Below the pieces are notes generated by a model, which made no database searches, was not told the origin of the DNA, and saw only the letters and a list, made by a program, of their open reading frames with translations. Source: Candidatus Moraniibacteriota bacterium (lineage in GTDB: Bacteria; Patescibacteriota; Minisyncoccia; Moranbacterales; UBA1568). Taken from it: a stretch of 64,000 bases of DNA. Where the stretch lies: positions 520,788 to 584,787 of the forward strand of contig CP064989.1 of NCBI GenBank assembly GCA_016699875.1, in the 5' to 3' direction. Each line of letters begins with the position of its first letter. Position 1 is the first letter of the stretch. Shown here in pieces: positions 1,963-42,000 of this stretch. Made by a program: the position numbers and the translations under genes.

Positions 1963-2011
1963 CTTTTCCCACAGTTTCCATTCCCGTTATTCTCGCCCCT
2001 TTTCTCTTCTC

Positions 2012-2038
2012 GTCATTCCCGCGAAGGCGGGAATCCAG
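2012..2038. repeat. REP-like palindromic element copy 1 (gtcattcccgcgaaggcgggaatccag), left terminal inverted repeat of GIY-YIG unit
   Basis: Perfect reverse complement of 2428-2454; internal hairpin ttcccgc-gaag-gcgggaa; translated in spurious ORFs as VIPAKAGIQ / RRRESR. Confidence 0.85.
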
Positions 2039-2100
2039 GTTCCACTCGCTTCCACAGAAACACACACAAGATTTTCCCAACAAGACTCCATTCTCAATTT

Positions 2101-2385
2101 TTACAATTCATCGTATAAATCTCTCCATTTCGGATTCCTTTGTTCAATCAATCGTATTTTCCATGAACGGTTCCATTTCTTCAACTGCCCTTCCCTCTGG
2201 ATAGCTCCAAGAATGCTGTCTCCTTGCTCATAATACACCAGCTTGTTCACGTTATATTTTTCGGTAAATCCGGGAAGGACCTTGTTCTTATGCTCCCACA
2301 TCCTCTTCCTAAGATCGGATGTAACTTCAACATACAATGTTCCATTTCTTTCGCTTGCCAGTATGTACACGCAGGGAGATTTCAT
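2101..2385 (-). CDS. GIY-YIG nuclease family protein (short, URI-domain only)
   Basis: MKSPCVYILASERNGTLYVEVTSDLRKRMWEHKNKV...GFTEKYNVNKLVYYE: canonical GIY...YIG / R / E motifs of the GIY-YIG superfamily; ATG at 2383-2385 chosen because upstream part of the six-frame ORF is the palindromic repeat. Confidence 0.8.
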   Translation of the reverse strand: MKSPCVYILASERNGTLYVEVTSDLRKRMWEHKNKVLPGFTEKYNVNKLVYYEQGDSILGAIQREGQLKKWNRSWKIRLIEQRNPKWRDLYDEL

Positions 2386-2427
2386 GAAACTCAATTCGTC
2401 ATCCGGAAATATCAGCGTCCGCAGAGA

Positions 2428-2454
2428 CTGGATTCCCGCCTTCGCGGGAATGAC
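2428..2454. repeat. REP-like palindromic element copy 2 (inverted relative to copy 1), right terminal inverted repeat of GIY-YIG unit
   Basis: ctggattcccgccttcgcgggaatgac = exact reverse complement of 2012-2038. Confidence 0.85.
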
Positions 2455-2462
2455 AGAAAAGG

Positions 2463-3008
2463 TCACTTCTGGCAGACAAGCGCGTAGTGATAATCCCCCG
2501 CCAATATATCCTTGACCGGAGAAAAACCGCGCTCAGAGAGCATCTCTATCAATTTCTCCCGGGAAATACGGAGCGACGCTTCCGGCCCAAACGACGCCTC
2601 AGAGTCATTCCACTCCATGATAAACAGGAAACCGCCCGACTTCAGCACGCGATAGGCCTCCCAGAGCATCGTTTCCTTGCTTTTGTTCTGAAAGAGCACA
2701 TCTTTCAAAATCACCCAGTCCAGGCTGTTGTCCGGCAAGCCGGACCCGCCTTCGCGTTCCAGATTCACCCGTTTTGTCGTCACATTGGAAAGCCCGAGCG
2801 CCTTGGCACGACTCGCCACCGCCTCAAGCGACGACGGCAAGATATCAAGCGCATACACCGTTCCTGACTTCCCCACCGCCCGCGCAAATGCGAGCGAGAA
2901 AAACCCCGACCCACACCCGAAGTCCGCAACTGACGCGCTCTCCAACGCATCAAGCTGGTCAATCACCTCTTCCGGCTTCACAAAATTATTCGTCAGCGTC
3001 GTTCCCAT
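2463..3008 (-). CDS. Class I SAM-dependent methyltransferase
   Basis: VADFGCGSGFFSLAFA glycine-rich SAM-binding motif I, acidic motif II (VYALDIL), typical ~180 aa small MTase. Confidence 0.8.
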   Translation of the reverse strand: MGTTLTNNFVKPEEVIDQLDALESASVADFGCGSGFFSLAFARAVGKSGTVYALDILPSSLEAVASRAKALGLSNVTTKRVNLEREGGSGLPDNSLDWVILKDVLFQNKSKETMLWEAYRVLKSGGFLFIMEWNDSEASFGPEASLRISREKLIEMLSERGFSPVKDILAGDYHYALVCQK

Positions 3009-11570: not shown

Positions 11571-11665
11571 CTTCAAAGAACCCTTGCCCCCTCGCGAATC
11601 TCTACCAACCCTCAAACTTTTTCTGGTTTGAGAATTGGATTGAGAAAACAAGGCTTGCGTAAGGC
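11571..11665. repeat. Cassette-boundary repeat R1 (ttcaaagaac... ctctaccaaccctcaaactttttctggtttgagaattggattgag)
   Basis: ~85% identical to 12866-12950 and 14906-15005; imperfect hairpin (caa-cctcaa..ttgag-aattgg). Confidence 0.8.
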
Positions 11666-12865: not shown

Positions 12866-12950
12866 TTCAAAGAACTCTATTCCTCTTTTCGCTGATCTCT
12901 ACCAATCCTCAAGCTTTTTCAAGTTGAGAATTGGATTGAGAGAGGGTTGA
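12866..12950. repeat. Cassette-boundary repeat R2
   Basis: ttcaaagaactc...ctctaccaatcctcaagctttttcaagttgagaattggattgagagaggg; begins 4 nt after stop of the ATPase gene. Confidence 0.8.
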
Positions 12951-14905: not shown

Positions 14906-15005
14906 TTCAAAGAACTTGTCCTCTACCAATCCTCAAGCTTTTTCAAGTTGAGAATTGGATTGAGAGAGGGATTGCGTAAAACCTTGCAATCCCTCTTGTT
15001 CCCGC
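14906..15005. repeat. Cassette-boundary repeat R3 plus adjacent perfect 10-bp-stem hairpin (gagggattgc..gcaatccctc)
   Basis: ttcaaagaacttgtcctctaccaatcctcaagctttttcaagttgagaattggattgagagaggg, near-identical to R2. Confidence 0.8.
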
Positions 15006-17853: not shown

Positions 17854-17879
17854 GTCATTCCCGCCTTCGCGAGAATGAC
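17854..17879. repeat. REP-like palindromic element copy 3 (gtcattcccgccttcgcgagaatgac) in nrdA-nrdB spacer
   Basis: Variant of the 2012/2428 element; self-complementary arms gtcattc/gaatgac. Confidence 0.75.
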
Positions 17880-39253: not shown

Positions 39254-39503
39254 AGACCGAGCCAAAAACCAAAGAATTGCAGTATATCAATCCATCAAAA
39301 ATATATCAAGCAGGTGAAACCGATTCGTTGCAGAGCCAGTATGCAATCGCATGTCGGCAGATAAGAATGCCTTGTGAGTGCCCCCAGTATGAATCGAACA
39401 TACATCGCTCCCTTAGGACGGGACCGTTCTATCCGTTGAACTATAGGGGCCGAAGATTCAATACAAAAAGAGCCTGTGAAACATTGTTTCACGCCATGCA
39501 CAG

Positions 39504-39576
39504 TGGACCGTAGGAGACTCGAACTCCTCACCTCCTCCATGCCATGGAGGCGCTCTACCAGATGAGCTAACGGCCC
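39504..39576 (-). tRNA. tRNA-Ala (anticodon GGC)
   Basis: G3:U70 identity pair present, anticodon loop atGGCat, T-loop TTCGAGT. Confidence 0.85.
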
Positions 39577-39833
39577 AACAAGCAAACACTTTTGTGGAGA
39601 TACCCACATCTTTTCCACAAAGAGCGTTCTACACAATAAGATGAGAGTATCGTACCATGTTTTAGCCCTCAGTCAAACAAATCAAACACTCTCTTTCGCA
39701 ACATTTCGAAAGCACCCCATTCATTACAGAAAAGAACAAGCGAATTAAGCGCCATCCCTCTGAAAAAAACAGCTACTTAGGATGGTAGAAATCCGTCTTA
39801 ATACACTCCTCCGCGCAAACATCTGTTTCAATA

Positions 39834-41544
39834 GTTCCACATGGAACATATTAGAGCTCTTCGACATTCAGAATCTCCACACAAAGAAGTTTCATGTGCA
39901 ACAAAGCTTTATCAAAAGAATAATATCCATTCCAAAAAATTCCTTGTTTTCCACGCCATGTACCGGTGTGCCCTCAGCAATGCTACATTAATTACCAGCA
40001 AGATCTACTCGTACTTTTTATAAACACACCCAACAGAATATACAAAACGTTCCACAAGGAACATGAGCCACCTCGTACAGACATAGGTAGACTGATTCAC
40101 GTGAAACATTTTGGCAAGCATACATTACATACTGTCATTGTTCCACAAGGAATAAGTAAATACCCCCTATTACACCTAGTGAAGAAATATATCTCAGAGA
40201 ATCCAACAAAAAATACAAAGTTTTTATTATAGACATCTTTAAAGTTCCGATTCATCTTTCCGTCCAAGAATTCCATAATACCACCACAAAATTGTTCCAC
40301 GTGAAAAATAATATGCCATGAGAAACATCGAGAAAATAAAACTACTCAATAAGTTCCACATGGAATACTGTCCGCAGTCGACATGCTTACCAACATTACT
40401 TATACAGATACATTTGGACTGGTTCGTTATGCAAGAACAATTATTGTTCCACGTGGAAATCAAAAATCGGGATACCACTAAGAGACATGAAAAAGCATGT
40501 TCCATGTGAATCAGACAAGCGAGATAAGAAAACAAATACCAACTGAGACAAGCCGCGACTCGAATGCAATGCCGCTTAATAACTAAAAATTTCGCTGACA
40601 AGAGTTCTGCTAATTATCAATATGATTCAGTGACAATAAAAACGTTGCACGTGAAACGCTGTGTATAGTTAAACAACAGGTCTGACAAAATGCTTGTTCC
40701 ACATGGAGCAATCCGGTTGCTCGAAAACGGAAATTAGACAAAAATACCTACACTTGTATGCATACAAAAACAGCCTACCGGACAACAGTATCTATACAAA
40801 AAAACACCCCCCGGGAGAATAATCCAAAAAAAAAAAAAAAAAACCAAAGGATATATACTAATAATCGTGGTCAGATATGTTCCACAAGGAACTTGTAATT
40901 CAGATACCTGAATATACTGCTCCACATGAAACAATAACGAAGATCATCACGAAACAGACAGCAAACAAAATATCGAAAAATTCCTACAAAAAATTCACCT
41001 AAAGGGAGTTACAATAGCAACAAGCAGCTCAATATAATGACTTCACCAAAATCAATACAAAAGAAATAGTTGTTCCACATGAAACAACGGGGAATATAAC
41101 CAATACAGCCACTTAAAACCCAGAGATATACAGGGCGTGGAATTGCTTTCATAACACAGCGAAAGAACAGAAGAATACAGTCAATGATCTACATACTTTC
41201 TGCATTGCTCAAGAAAGATAATTTCAGCGCACTGTATATACAATATACATACGCAGTGGAACTTACAAAAAGCAATTATTAAGGCGATCTTAACGTGAGG
41301 AGCGTTAATCTCAGATAATTCCATGTGAAACAAAATGAAAAATGTTCCACGCGCAACAATAACACCCGCTCAAAAAGCTTTATTTCAAGATCTATCGAGC
41401 AATCTCGTGGCAACAAAGCAGAGCAATAGAGTGCCCATGTATGGCGATTCAGAGACTACGCCACATGAATACACCAATAAAGAAATCTTTGATTTTAATA
41501 CTCCCGCTATACTCGCAAGTATATAAAATGTTCCACGTGAAACT
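39834..41544. repeat. Array of ~16 parS-like 16-bp palindromes (TGTTCCACGTGAAACA family) in a gene-free AT-rich region
   Basis: Sites (core coordinates): 39834, 39889, 40049, 40096, 40140, 40293, 40352, 40445, 40498, 40643, 40696, 40879, 40918, 41071, 41317, 41343, 41529; several within 1 mismatch of consensus. Confidence 0.8.
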
Positions 41545-42000
41545 ATTCGCGTGATTCTCAGAGAAATACGTGAAACATGCGAACAGAAAAACCGCGAGAT
41601 CATTGTCATCACCGGTCCAATTTAAATCCAACAATATCAACTCTTTGAAGAGAGATGGTTTGCCTTCAAAGGCTTGTAGCTGCTTTATCAATGCGGAAGA
41701 AGTCCTTTATCCAGACATTACACTGAGAGAATGCGATAGGAACAATATTTTCACTCACTACCATAGCAGTCACCAAAAAAACACATCGGCAGTGAAAATT
41801 ACACATAGTAAACTAAGAAAAGACACAAAAAAATCCTTCAGACAAACGCCCGCCACAAATTACAGCGAATCTCTGCAATCCGCGACACTCACCATTAAAT
41901 CATTCCAAAAATTTCTTCATCTATATTTGACACGTCAGGGAAAAGTTTTTTTTGAATAAAGTGTGGTATACTGCACAGTGATATTCTACTTCGATATCAT

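What the first reader, a model, noticed from the sequence alone, without database searches (positions are those of the whole stretch)
2012..2454. GIY-YIG nuclease gene exactly bracketed by 27-bp perfect inverted repeats of a REP-like palindromic element
gtcattcccgcgaaggcgggaatccag (2012-2038) and its exact reverse complement (2428-2454) flank the 94-aa GIY-YIG (URI-domain-only) gene, giving a 443-bp unit with terminal inverted repeats. Each repeat is itself a hairpin (ttcccgc-gaag-gcgggaa). Two further solo variants occur at 17854-17879 (nrdA-nrdB spacer) and 61276-61302 (upstream of the G5/RlpA gene). In six-frame translation the element yields the recurrent pseudo-peptides VIPAKAGIQ / SRHSREGGNDK. 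The architecture, a small nuclease plus TIRs with dispersed solo copies of the TIR, parallels REP elements and their associated RAYT transposases, but with a GIY-YIG nuclease in place of a HUH enzyme. It could be a minimal mobile or selfish unit, or the nuclease may process the palindromic repeats.
Basis: seen in the sequence. Interest (0 to 1): 0.62.

Follow-up and report, generated by a model that had tools for sequence, protein, structure and literature searches.

The report
SsnA nuclease gene with NTS hairpins
This is a Candidatus Moraniibacteriota copy of the Ssn/NTS system published in 2025: a 94-aa GIY-YIG nuclease gene flanked by the hairpin repeat that characterised family members bind and cut next to in single-stranded DNA. 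It is real, but not new as a kind.

Summary
A perfect 27-bp inverted repeat (2012-2038 / 2428-2454), each arm a hairpin, brackets a 94-aa GIY-YIG gene (2101-2385, minus strand). Related solo copies lie at 17854-17879 and 61276-61303.

It is not a new kind of element. It matches the Ssn/NTS system of Chenal et al., Nat Commun 2025 (PMC11893778). The left repeat matches their 28-nt NTS consensus at 28/28 positions and the right at 27/28. SsnA is a single-domain, 94-aa GIY-YIG enzyme. It binds the NTS hairpin only in single-stranded DNA and cuts a few nucleotides 5' of it. That paper already describes the NTS-ssnA-NTS layout and draws the IS and REP comparison.

New here:
- The member is in Candidatus Moraniibacteriota.
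- The orthologous methyltransferase-SBP (solute-binding protein gene) spacer occurs in three states in relatives: empty, a solo symmetric palindrome, or the full cassette.
- The solo allele looks like a deletion scar between the two palindromic cores.
- The window's protein carries G20E and K66G at positions near-invariant in homologues, so this copy may be impaired. A canonical paralogue appears to lie about five genes away.

Whether the nuclease itself moves the cassette remains untested.

The parts
2428..2455 (-). Gene-proximal (5') NTS repeat. It reads TGTCATTCCCGCGAAGGCGGGAATCCAG on the minus strand, the same sense as ssnA, and ends 42 nt before the ATG.
   Evidence: 27/28 to the published NTS consensus. 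Matches the paper's SRM (Ssn-related motif) search expression. Forms a hairpin of -10.6 kcal/mol.
2101..2385 (-). ssnA homologue: a 94-aa single-domain GIY-YIG nuclease (stop codon included). Y7, Y18 and E65 correspond to the Y6, Y17 and E64 mutated in N. meningitidis SsnA. It carries the unusual substitutions G20E and K66G.
   Evidence: Pfam PF01541, E = 1.1e-11. More than 6000 homologues at 60-83% identity. Conservation.
2011..2038 (+). Gene-distal (3') NTS repeat. It reads CGTCATTCCCGCGAAGGCGGGAATCCAG on the plus strand, inverted relative to the gene, and lies 62 nt past the stop. Its interior flank GGTTCCAC (2039-2045) is shared with relatives and with the 61276 solo copy.
   Evidence: 28/28 to the NTS consensus. 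SRM expression match. Hairpin of -8.9 kcal/mol. Interior-flank homology.
1980..1997 (+). Relic of an NTS left half (ATTCCCGTTATTCTCGC), just outside the cassette.
   Evidence: Read from the sequence. The same string, GTTATTCTCGC, begins a full NTS variant in relative L288:7078-7097. It is present in the occupied alleles of relatives.
61276..61303 (-). Solo oriented NTS with a compensatory stem change. It lies upstream of a G5/DPBB gene.
   Evidence: for the repeat. for the gene context.
17854..17879 (.). Solo symmetric palindrome GTCATTCCCGCCTTCGCGAGAATGAC in the ribonucleotide reductase large/small subunit spacer. It has the form expected of a deletion scar of a cassette. It does not match the SRM expression.
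   Evidence: for the palindrome. for the context. One search shows no SRM hit. One search shows the analogous scar in relatives.

Best explanation
The locus is a member of the Ssn/NTS system. The 94-aa protein is an SsnA-family, single-domain GIY-YIG endonuclease. The flanking 28-nt repeats are its cognate NTS (SRM) hairpins.

By homology with the characterised enzymes, the protein would recognise the NTS only in single-stranded DNA and only in the forward orientation (CGTCATTCCC...). It reads both the stem sequence and the asymmetric flanks, and cuts a few nucleotides 5' of the motif. In the window that predicts one cut on the plus strand just left of 2011 and one on the minus strand just right of 2455. 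It also predicts a cut next to the solo NTS at 61303. These sites are inferred.

The likely biological effect is cutting of single-stranded DNA that carries NTS, such as DNA entering by uptake or conjugation, or replication and repair intermediates. That would modulate recombination around NTS-marked loci. This is also inferred, by analogy with N. meningitidis.

The cassette behaves as a discrete block that is gained and lost. Because the NTS core is a palindrome, its two arms provide short direct repeats. A deletion between them leaves a symmetric solo palindrome; this is shown by comparison of alleles. The window's copy may be weakened (G20E, K66G) and backed up by a canonical paralogue nearby.
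For: 1. Repeat identity. The repeats match the published consensus CGTCATTCCCGCGMAVGCGGGAATCYRG at 28/28 and 27/28 (consensus). The paper's SRM expression hits 3 sites in the window against 0.3 in shuffles.

2. Protein. It is a single GIY-YIG domain of 94 aa, the same length as Nm SsnA. Tyr, Tyr and Glu sit at the positions mutated in the paper.

3. Association. All loci of four homologues carry the motif beside the gene. Among 80 homologues from more than ten phyla, 42 have it on both sides and 22 on one side. Density is 3.45 per kb within 250 bp of the gene against 0.118 per kb elsewhere. The commonest layout, forward upstream and inverted downstream, is the window's.

4. Consensus. Pooling 191 distinct instances regenerates the published consensus, including loop and flank positions that my search left free.

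5. Biochemistry and biology of homologues are taken from PMC11893778.

6. Cassette as a block. Homology with relatives' cassettes starts and stops at the outer NTS ends. The same methyltransferase-SBP spacer is empty in L288, L289 and L290. It holds a solo palindrome in L282-L285. It holds the cassette in the window and in L292-L295. L292 and L282 flanks are 97-99% identical, with a 507-bp versus 17-bp difference.

7. Selection. dN/dS is 0.03 between two close cassette copies.
Against: - No direct comparison with the N. meningitidis protein (CAX49033.1) or with CDD cd10448 was possible with these tools. Family assignment therefore rests on the DNA motif, size, domain and architecture.
- The window's protein has Glu where 114 of 114 homologues have the Gly of the YIG motif. 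It has Gly where 82 of 84 have Lys, next to the catalytic Glu. This particular copy may be inactive.
- NTS copy number is low (3 SRM matches in 64 kb), so a genome-wide role like that in pathogenic Neisseria is not implied.
- No experiment exists for any Patescibacteria member.
- The relatives' alleles come mostly from metagenome assemblies, which can break or join wrongly at repeats. However, L288 is from a 1.11-Mb record, and each allele was seen in several independent assemblies.
Confidence: 0.88

Rival explanations
1. The NTS-ssnA-NTS unit is an autonomous transposon. SsnA acts as the transposase on single-stranded DNA, in the manner of IS200/IS605 or REP/RAYT, and solo NTS copies are its non-autonomous derivatives.
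For: - The unit has an IS-like architecture.
- Homology with relatives' cassettes is bounded by the NTS outer ends.
- Closely related cassettes (82-83% protein identity) lie in other gene contexts, namely T4SS-pilin arrays.
- There is presence/absence polymorphism at an orthologous site.
- A 28-nt DNA motif and a 60-68% identical protein are shared across more than ten phyla.
- The authors of PMC11893778 raise the same hypothesis.
Against: - No target-site duplication is visible at the window's ends.
- The two copies inferred in this genome are only 79% identical, so there is no recent burst.
- In the dominant inverted layout each strand has only one NTS in the cleavable orientation, so SsnA alone cannot excise a strand (orientation rule).
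- To my knowledge, GIY-YIG enzymes hydrolyse DNA without a covalent intermediate and have no known joining activity.
- The one polymorphism resolved here is best read as a deletion through microhomology of the palindrome arms, which needs no transposase. Its distal breakpoint lies about 52 nt beyond the NTS.
Confidence: 0.2
2. The window's copy is a decaying, redundant paralogue. The functional gene of this genome is the second copy (P0010) five protein accessions away, and the window's cassette is on its way to becoming a solo scar.
For: - G20E and K66G fall at positions that are G in 114/114 and K in 82/84 homologues, and canonical in 41 listed relatives.
- P0010 (QQS16211.1) is canonical and, by its accession, lies close to P0001 (QQS16216.1) in the same 1.09-Mb record.
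- P0010 is 97% identical to the gene that occupies this very site in relatives. The window's gene is only 79-83% identical to all of them.
Against: - The reading frame is intact at full length.
- All three residues mutated in the paper are present.
- dN against relatives is about 0.10-0.12 with saturated or high dS, which still indicates purifying selection over most of its history.
- Both NTS arms are perfect, and a decaying locus would be expected to lose them too.
Confidence: 0.3
3. The repeats are ordinary transcription terminators or regulatory hairpins that happen to lie next to a small nuclease gene.
For: They are G+C-rich stem-loops in intergenic DNA. One lies after the gene and after the upstream methyltransferase gene.
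Against: - No T-run follows either hairpin, and the terminator scan does not report them.
- The sequence, not just the structure, is conserved across phyla, including asymmetric flanks and loop bases.
- The motif is about 29-fold enriched next to ssnA homologues.
- No Rfam family matches there.
Confidence: 0.02
4. It is a free-standing GIY-YIG homing endonuclease that cuts an empty allele and copies itself in by repair.
For: It is a GIY-YIG nuclease, shows presence/absence polymorphism, and has a patchy cross-phylum distribution.
Against: - There is no DNA-binding domain beyond the 94-aa catalytic core.
- Characterised family members do not cut double-stranded DNA at all.
- The empty alleles (L288, L289, L290) contain no NTS that could serve as a target.
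- There are no PHROGs or PADLOC matches.
Confidence: 0.04

Closest known systems
SsnA / NTS (Ssn-related motif) system, first characterised in Neisseria meningitidis (Chenal et al., Nat Commun 2025, PMC11893778)
   Same: - A 94-aa single-domain GIY-YIG protein.
- A flanking 28-nt repeat that fits the NTS consensus at 28/28 and 27/28.
- The NTS-gene-NTS architecture.
- Intergenic solo copies.
- Tyr/Tyr/Glu catalytic positions.
   Different: - The host is a Candidatus Moraniibacteriota (Patescibacteria) genome of about 1.1 Mb.
- Copy number is low (3 SRM matches in 64 kb), against hundreds in pathogenic Neisseria.
- The window's protein carries G20E and K66G.
- No biochemical or genetic data exist for this member.
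dRS3 repeats of Neisseria (ATTCCC-N8-GGGAAT)
   Same: The core of every copy here fits ATTCCC-N8-GGGAAT, with 0-1 mismatch.
   Different: dRS3 is defined only by the symmetric core. Three of the four copies here also carry the oriented flanks (C/T)GTC...CCAG that define the NTS. Use of dRS3 as a phage integration site was not examined here.
REP/BIME elements with RAYT (IS200/IS605-like Y1 HUH) transposases
   Same: A small nuclease gene is flanked by inverted copies of a short hairpin repeat that also occurs dispersed in intergenic DNA. The enzyme acts on the hairpin in single-stranded form.
   Different: The enzyme fold and chemistry differ (GIY-YIG hydrolase, not an HUH tyrosine enzyme; only PF01541 is found). 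No strand-transfer activity is known. Only one strand orientation of the motif is cut.
Free-standing GIY-YIG homing endonucleases (I-TevI, Seg proteins)
   Same: They share the GIY-YIG catalytic domain and a selfish-looking, patchy distribution.
   Different: Those enzymes have separate DNA-binding domains and cut double-stranded DNA. This family is the catalytic domain alone and, where tested, cuts only single-stranded DNA.

Membership tests
Ssn nuclease family (SsnA, cd10448) | Single-domain GIY-YIG protein of about 94 aa (under 150 aa) with no extra domain | tested here: met
   94 aa from the ATG at 2385. PF01541 covers residues 4-77 (31-104 of the 121-aa ORF scanned), and no other Pfam family is found.
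Ssn nuclease family (SsnA, cd10448) | blastp hit to N. meningitidis SsnA (CAX49033.1) at E < 1e-10 with at least 75% coverage, or top CDD hit cd10448 | not testable with these tools
   Neither the Nm sequence nor CDD is reachable. The paper's supplements are not held. NCBIfam has no model, and there is no solved relative by sequence.
Ssn nuclease family (SsnA, cd10448) | Conserved catalytic Tyr (GIY), Tyr (YIG) and metal-binding Glu (Y6, Y17, E64 in Nm) | tested here: met
   Y7, Y18 and E65 are present and invariant in alignment A1. Caveat: the neighbouring G20 and K66 are replaced by E and G, unlike 114/114 and 82/84 homologues.
Ssn nuclease family (SsnA, cd10448) | At least one SRM within 500 bp on both the 5' and 3' sides of the gene | tested here: met
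   The paper's expression HGTCWYN(0-2)YYVSBRHN(0-5)WNVSBRGN(0-2)RNCYNB matches 2011-2038 (+) and 2428-2455 (-). Shuffles give 0.3 per window.
NTS repeat | Fits CGTCATTCCCGCGMAVGCGGGAATCYRG, with oriented non-palindromic flanks around a hairpin core | tested here: met
   28/28, 27/28 and 25/28 for the three oriented copies. Hairpins confirmed. The 17854-17879 copy is symmetric and does not qualify.
Ssn nuclease family (SsnA, cd10448) | Binds and cuts NTS only as single-stranded DNA, strand-specifically, a few nt 5' of the motif | not testable with these tools
   This needs purified protein. It has been shown only for four homologues in PMC11893778.
REP/RAYT | HUH/Y1 transposase of the IS200/IS605 type | tested here: not met
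   Only PF01541 (GIY-YIG) is found.
Insertion sequence / transposon | Target-site duplication at the element ends | tested here: not met
   The flanks are ...CTTCTC|GTCATT and AATGAC|AGAAAA, with no direct repeat.
Insertion sequence / transposon | Occupied and empty alleles of one site in related genomes | tested here: met
   Empty in L288, L289 and L290. Solo palindrome in L282-L285. Cassette in the window and L292-L295.
Insertion sequence / transposon | Several near-identical copies within one genome | tested here: inconclusive
   There is one copy in the window. A second copy in the same record is only 79% identical. The rest of the genome could not be read.
Intrinsic terminator | G+C-rich hairpin followed by a T-run | tested here: not met
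   The scan of 1800-2700 reports neither repeat. The tails are CAGGTTCC and GACGAGAAG.
Known anti-phage defence systems (PADLOC) | Match to a PADLOC model | tested here: not met
   No hit at E <= 0.01.

The most novel reading that the evidence does not exclude
The NTS-ssnA-NTS cassette is an active mobile element of a new mechanistic class. A GIY-YIG single-strand-specific nuclease would start movement of its own gene through single-stranded DNA intermediates, with host repair completing the step. The dispersed oriented and symmetric palindromes would be its footprints.

The three-state polymorphism and the scar structure found here would then be snapshots of its life cycle in Patescibacteria.
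Probability: 0.2. Interest if true: 0.75.

Novelty: new member of a known kind. Interest (0 to 1): 0.3.

Why it matters
As a kind of system it is already published, so the main value is correct filing: small 'GIY-YIG nuclease family protein' genes flanked by GTCATTCCCGCG..GCGGGAATCC hairpins are Ssn/NTS modules.

Three points go slightly beyond the paper as read here:
- The module is present, with an unchanged DNA motif, in ultra-small Patescibacteria. The authors noted an enrichment of the repeats among host-associated symbionts.
- One orthologous site shows empty, scar and occupied states among relatives. This gives a concrete substrate for testing whether and how the cassette moves, which the authors left as a hypothesis.
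- The palindromic core provides built-in direct microhomology. That explains how symmetric dRS3-like solo palindromes can arise from oriented NTS pairs.

A practical point follows for annotation. ORF callers can extend genes through the repeat and create recurrent pseudo-peptides such as VIPAKAGIQ.

Tried and rejected
- PDB by sequence: only spurious hits to WD40 repeat proteins, so no solved relative.
- NCBIfam, PADLOC and PHROGs: no family.
- Rfam over the whole window: only tRNAs, nothing at the repeats.
- Literal searches of the paper library for the repeat and its pseudo-peptides: no hits. The relevant paper came from a keyword search. Two further searches found no follow-up work.
- The paper's supplements are not held. 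So the N. meningitidis protein and the oligonucleotide sequences could not be used, and the exact cut distance could not be transferred.
- Look-up of the paralogue P0010 by exact sequence failed. Its position was inferred from accession numbers and from a 97% identical cluster member.
- Terminator reading rejected.
- A target-site duplication was looked for by eye and not found.
The 52% flanked on both sides therefore comes from a biased sample, and Neisseria was not among the loci.
- NTS and ssnA relatives in IMG/VR contigs were not pursued, because many such contigs are proviruses with host flanks.
- Not run: structure prediction, the large representative-protein search and the metagenome scan. 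None would have changed the verdict.

Full report
**1. What is in the sequence**

The 27-mer GTCATTCCCGCGAAGGCGGGAATCCAG lies at 2012-2038, and its exact reverse complement lies at 2428-2454. A third copy with two mismatches is at 61276-61302. None is expected in 100 dinucleotide-preserving shuffles.

A search for the core ATTCCC-N8-GGGAAT finds these three plus 17857-17876, against 0.19 expected. Each copy folds into an 8-bp stem with a 4-nt loop. The two differences of the 61276 copy are a compensatory pair that preserves the stem.

Between the arms, on the minus strand, is an ORF whose product matches Pfam GIY-YIG (PF01541, E = 1.1e-11). All homologues start at the position of the ATG at 2385, so the protein is 94 aa. 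The 121-aa ORF from the GTG at 2466 simply reads through the repeat.

Neighbouring genes, all on the minus strand:
- a class I methyltransferase (2463-3008)
- an extracellular solute-binding protein, SBP (532-1962)

The solo copies lie between the ribonucleotide reductase large and small subunit genes, and upstream of a G5/DPBB gene.

**2. Organism and family size**

The protein is identical to a 'GIY-YIG nuclease family protein' of a Candidatus Moraniibacteriota MAG, on a 1,088,644-bp record (accession QQS16216.1). The protein search returned more than 6000 relatives. Many are 60-70% identical and named from Rhodocyclaceae, Deltaproteobacteria, Colwellia, Syntrophales and Patescibacteria.

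**3. The repeat travels with the gene**

Loci carrying four different homologues were fetched: Rhodocyclaceae (L001-L010), an unnamed lineage (L011-L019), and the two closest relatives at 82-83% identity (L020-L033). In all of them the same motif flanks the gene wherever the contig extends far enough.

In L001 the gene sits inside an atuA-type operon. Both repeats there are in direct orientation, and the upstream one lies inside the 3' end of the preceding ORF.

A scan of one genome per species found at least 587 relatives, and the best 80 were kept. They come from Pseudomonadota, Planctomycetota, Chloroflexota, Cyanobacteria, Ignavibacteria, Verrucomicrobiota, Acidobacteria, Latescibacterota, Bdellovibrionales and Patescibacteria (Moraniibacteriota, Saccharibacteria).

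I scored GTCATTCCC-N8-GGGAATCC, allowing up to 3 mismatches in the 17 fixed positions:

| Flanking pattern | Loci (of 80) |
|---|---|
| Motif on both sides | 42 |
| Motif on one side | 22 |
| No motif | 16 |

At up to 2 mismatches:
- Density is 3.45 per kb within 250 bp of the gene, against 0.118 per kb in the rest of the loci.
- The nearest upstream copy is forward in 42 of 47 loci.
- The nearest downstream copy is inverted in 42 of 54 loci.
- So the window has the commonest layout.

Pooling 191 distinct instances gives the consensus (C)GTCATTCCCGCG(A/C)A(G/A)GCGGGAATCCAG. This includes positions my search pattern left free.

**4. It is a published system**

[quoted passage not shown] From that paper:

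- The NTS is defined as CGTCATTCCCGCGMAVGCGGGAATCYRG. It is an oriented extension of the Neisseria dRS3 repeat ATTCCC-N8-GGGAAT.
- It is spatially associated, across phyla, with homologues of NMV_0044, renamed ssnA. This is a 94-aa single-domain GIY-YIG protein of CDD family cd10448.
- With a degenerate motif (SRM), 71% of homologues have at least one repeat nearby and 42% have one on both sides.
- The purified enzyme binds and cuts the NTS only as single-stranded DNA, only in the forward orientation, a few nucleotides upstream. It does not act on double-stranded DNA or RNA. Y6A, Y17A and E64A abolish cutting.
- Loss of ssnA raises transformation about five-fold with NTS-bearing DNA.
- The Discussion states that NTS-ssnA-NTS looks like an insertion sequence. 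It compares it with IS200/IS605 transposases and REP/BIME elements, and proposes domestication.

Two further searches found no follow-up work in the library.

**5. Membership tests**

- The left repeat (2011-2038) fits the NTS consensus at 28/28. The right (2428-2455, minus strand) fits at 27/28, and the 61276 copy at 25/28.
- The paper's SRM expression matches exactly these three sites, against 0.3 per shuffled window. The symmetric copy at 17854-17879 does not match.
- The protein has Tyr7, Tyr18 and Glu65, invariant in an alignment of 20 relatives.
- I could not compare it with the N. meningitidis sequence or with CDD. The supplements are not held, NCBIfam has no model, and there is no solved relative by sequence.
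- The repeats are not terminator-like and match no Rfam family.
- The protein matches no PADLOC or PHROGs family.

**6. Gain and loss at the orthologous site**

The SBP neighbour has close orthologues, and their contigs show the same methyltransferase-SBP junction in three states.

*Empty.* In these relatives the two genes are adjacent, with a 52-98-bp spacer, no NTS and no ssnA:

| Locus | SBP identity to window |
|---|---|
| L288 (record CP064974.1, 1.11 Mb) | 89% |
| L289 | 86% |
| L290, L291 | 80% |

*Solo.* L282-L285 (SBP 92%) carry a 46-nt symmetric palindrome at the junction: GTCGTTCCTGCGCCTGCCTGCCGGTAGGTAGGAAGGCGGGAATGAC. It folds at -14.6 kcal/mol.

*Occupied.*
- The window carries the cassette.
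- L292-L295 (SBP protein identical to that of L282) carry the full cassette.
- L286 and L287 (SBP 92%) start inside the distal NTS, with the window's outer flank.
- L281 (SBP 96%) also starts inside an NTS.

L292 (occupied) and L282 (solo) are 97.3% and 98.8% identical in their flanks. They differ by 507 bp versus 17 bp.

In the alignment, the solo allele is the first 43 nt of the upstream NTS, up to ...GGCGGGAAT. Here that NTS is a long-loop variant. It is joined to GAC and the flank beyond the downstream NTS. Because the core is a palindrome, both NTSs present the 8-nt GCGGGAAT on the same strand. A deletion between these short direct repeats removes the gene and leaves a symmetric palindrome.

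The distal side also lacks about 52 nt of purine-rich flank. So the change is not a clean single event, or it was followed by a second deletion.

The occupied state is shared by lineages as far apart as the window and L292 (SBP gene 83% identical in DNA), while the more distant relatives are empty. The most parsimonious history is one gain in the ancestor of this clade, followed by a recent loss in some strains. This is an inference.

The window's own symmetric copy at 17854-17879 has the form of such a scar. A half-NTS relic at 1980-1997 shows earlier activity at this spot.

**7. State of the window's copy**

The window's protein has Glu at position 20, where 114 of 114 homologues in fetched loci have the Gly of the YIG motif. 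It has Gly at position 66, where 82 of 84 have Lys, next to the catalytic Glu. All 41 listed relatives are canonical at both positions.

A second protein of the same record, P0010 (QQS16211.1, five accessions away), is canonical. No second copy is present in the window, so that gene lies just beyond the window's start. It is probably in the T4SS-pilin array seen downstream of SBP in relatives. This is inferred.

P0010 is 97% identical to the gene that occupies the methyltransferase-SBP site in L292. The window's gene is only 79-83% identical to all of these. Selection on the family is strongly purifying: dN/dS is 0.03 between L020 and L028. The window's copy may therefore be weakened or diverging, but its frame and both NTSs are intact.

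**8. How it most likely works**

*Established for homologues.* SsnA recognises the forward NTS hairpin in single-stranded DNA and nicks a few nucleotides 5' of it.

*Inferred for this locus.*
- Cut sites lie just left of 2011 on the plus strand, just right of 2455 on the minus strand, and beside 61303 on the minus strand.
- In the inverted layout each strand carries only one cleavable NTS, at the 5' edge of the cassette on that strand. The enzyme alone cannot excise the cassette from a single strand.
- Direct layouts such as L001 could allow that.

*Inferred biological role.* The enzyme trims NTS-bearing single-stranded DNA during uptake, conjugation or repair, and so shapes recombination near NTS-marked loci. 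The recurrent placement of cassettes and NTS variants in T4SS-pilin gene arrays of Moraniibacteriota recalls the clustering of NTS around surface-protein genes in Neisseria. I did not test this.

**9. Verdict**

It rediscovers a system published in 2025, including the REP/IS analogy. It is a new member of a known kind. The modest additions are the Patescibacteria host, the three-state polymorphism with a scar mechanism, and the atypical substitutions in this copy.

Noticed in passing
window 39830-41545: An AT-rich stretch of about 1.7 kb (GC 0.37) without long ORFs. It holds 17 matches, about 14 distinct sites, to the near-palindrome GTTCCAC(A/G)TG(G/A)AA, against 0.46 expected, and lies next to tRNA genes at 39379-39576. 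It could be an origin-like or iteron-like binding-site array. GC skew does not change sign there.
   Followed up: partly
window 2101-2385 (residues 20 and 66): The window's SsnA has G20E (the Gly of YIG) and K66G (next to the catalytic Glu). Homologues have G in 114/114 and K in 82/84 at these positions.
   Followed up: yes
L289:1-1400: In a relative (SBP 86% identical), a large serine recombinase and a different small GIY-YIG protein (89 aa, MHYVYFLRL..., not Ssn-like) lie between two copies of the same tRNA segment, next to the methyltransferase gene. This looks like a tRNA-targeting integrative element.
   Followed up: no
L020, L028-L033, L288:6796-7377, L292:14892-18903: In Moraniibacteriota relatives, ssnA cassettes and NTS variants lie within arrays of T4SS_pilin (PF18895) genes a few kb from the SBP gene.
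   Followed up: partly
L001:3298-3372: In Rhodocyclaceae the cassette sits inside an atuA-type operon with both NTSs in direct orientation. It is followed by a second, different palindrome, CTGGATTCCGGGTTCCGCTTCGCGGCCCCGGAATGAC.
   Followed up: no
window 2386-2466; protein P0005: ORF callers can extend ssnA upstream through the NTS. This produces N-terminal pseudo-peptides such as VIPAKAGIQ (the window's 121-aa GTG ORF) or VFPAKAGIP (P0005, 128 aa).
   Followed up: yes
window 12897-12946 and 14921-14970 (weaker copy at 11600-11649): A perfect 50-nt direct repeat occurs 2 kb apart: CTCTACCAATCCTCAAGCTTTTTCAAGTTGAGAATTGGATTGAGAGAGGG. It contains an internal inverted repeat.
   Followed up: no
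L114-L241 (IMG/VR contigs): 48 ssnA relatives were found in predicted viral contigs, and at least 120 stretches of such contigs carry the NTS core, some with 5 copies in a few kb. Many may be proviruses with host flanks.
   Followed up: no
L292:9910-9956, L294, L282: The upstream NTS of relatives has a 20-nt insertion in its loop (GCCTGCCTGCYGGTAGKTAG) that lengthens the hairpin. This is consistent with the published tolerance of SsnA to loop extensions.
   Followed up: partly
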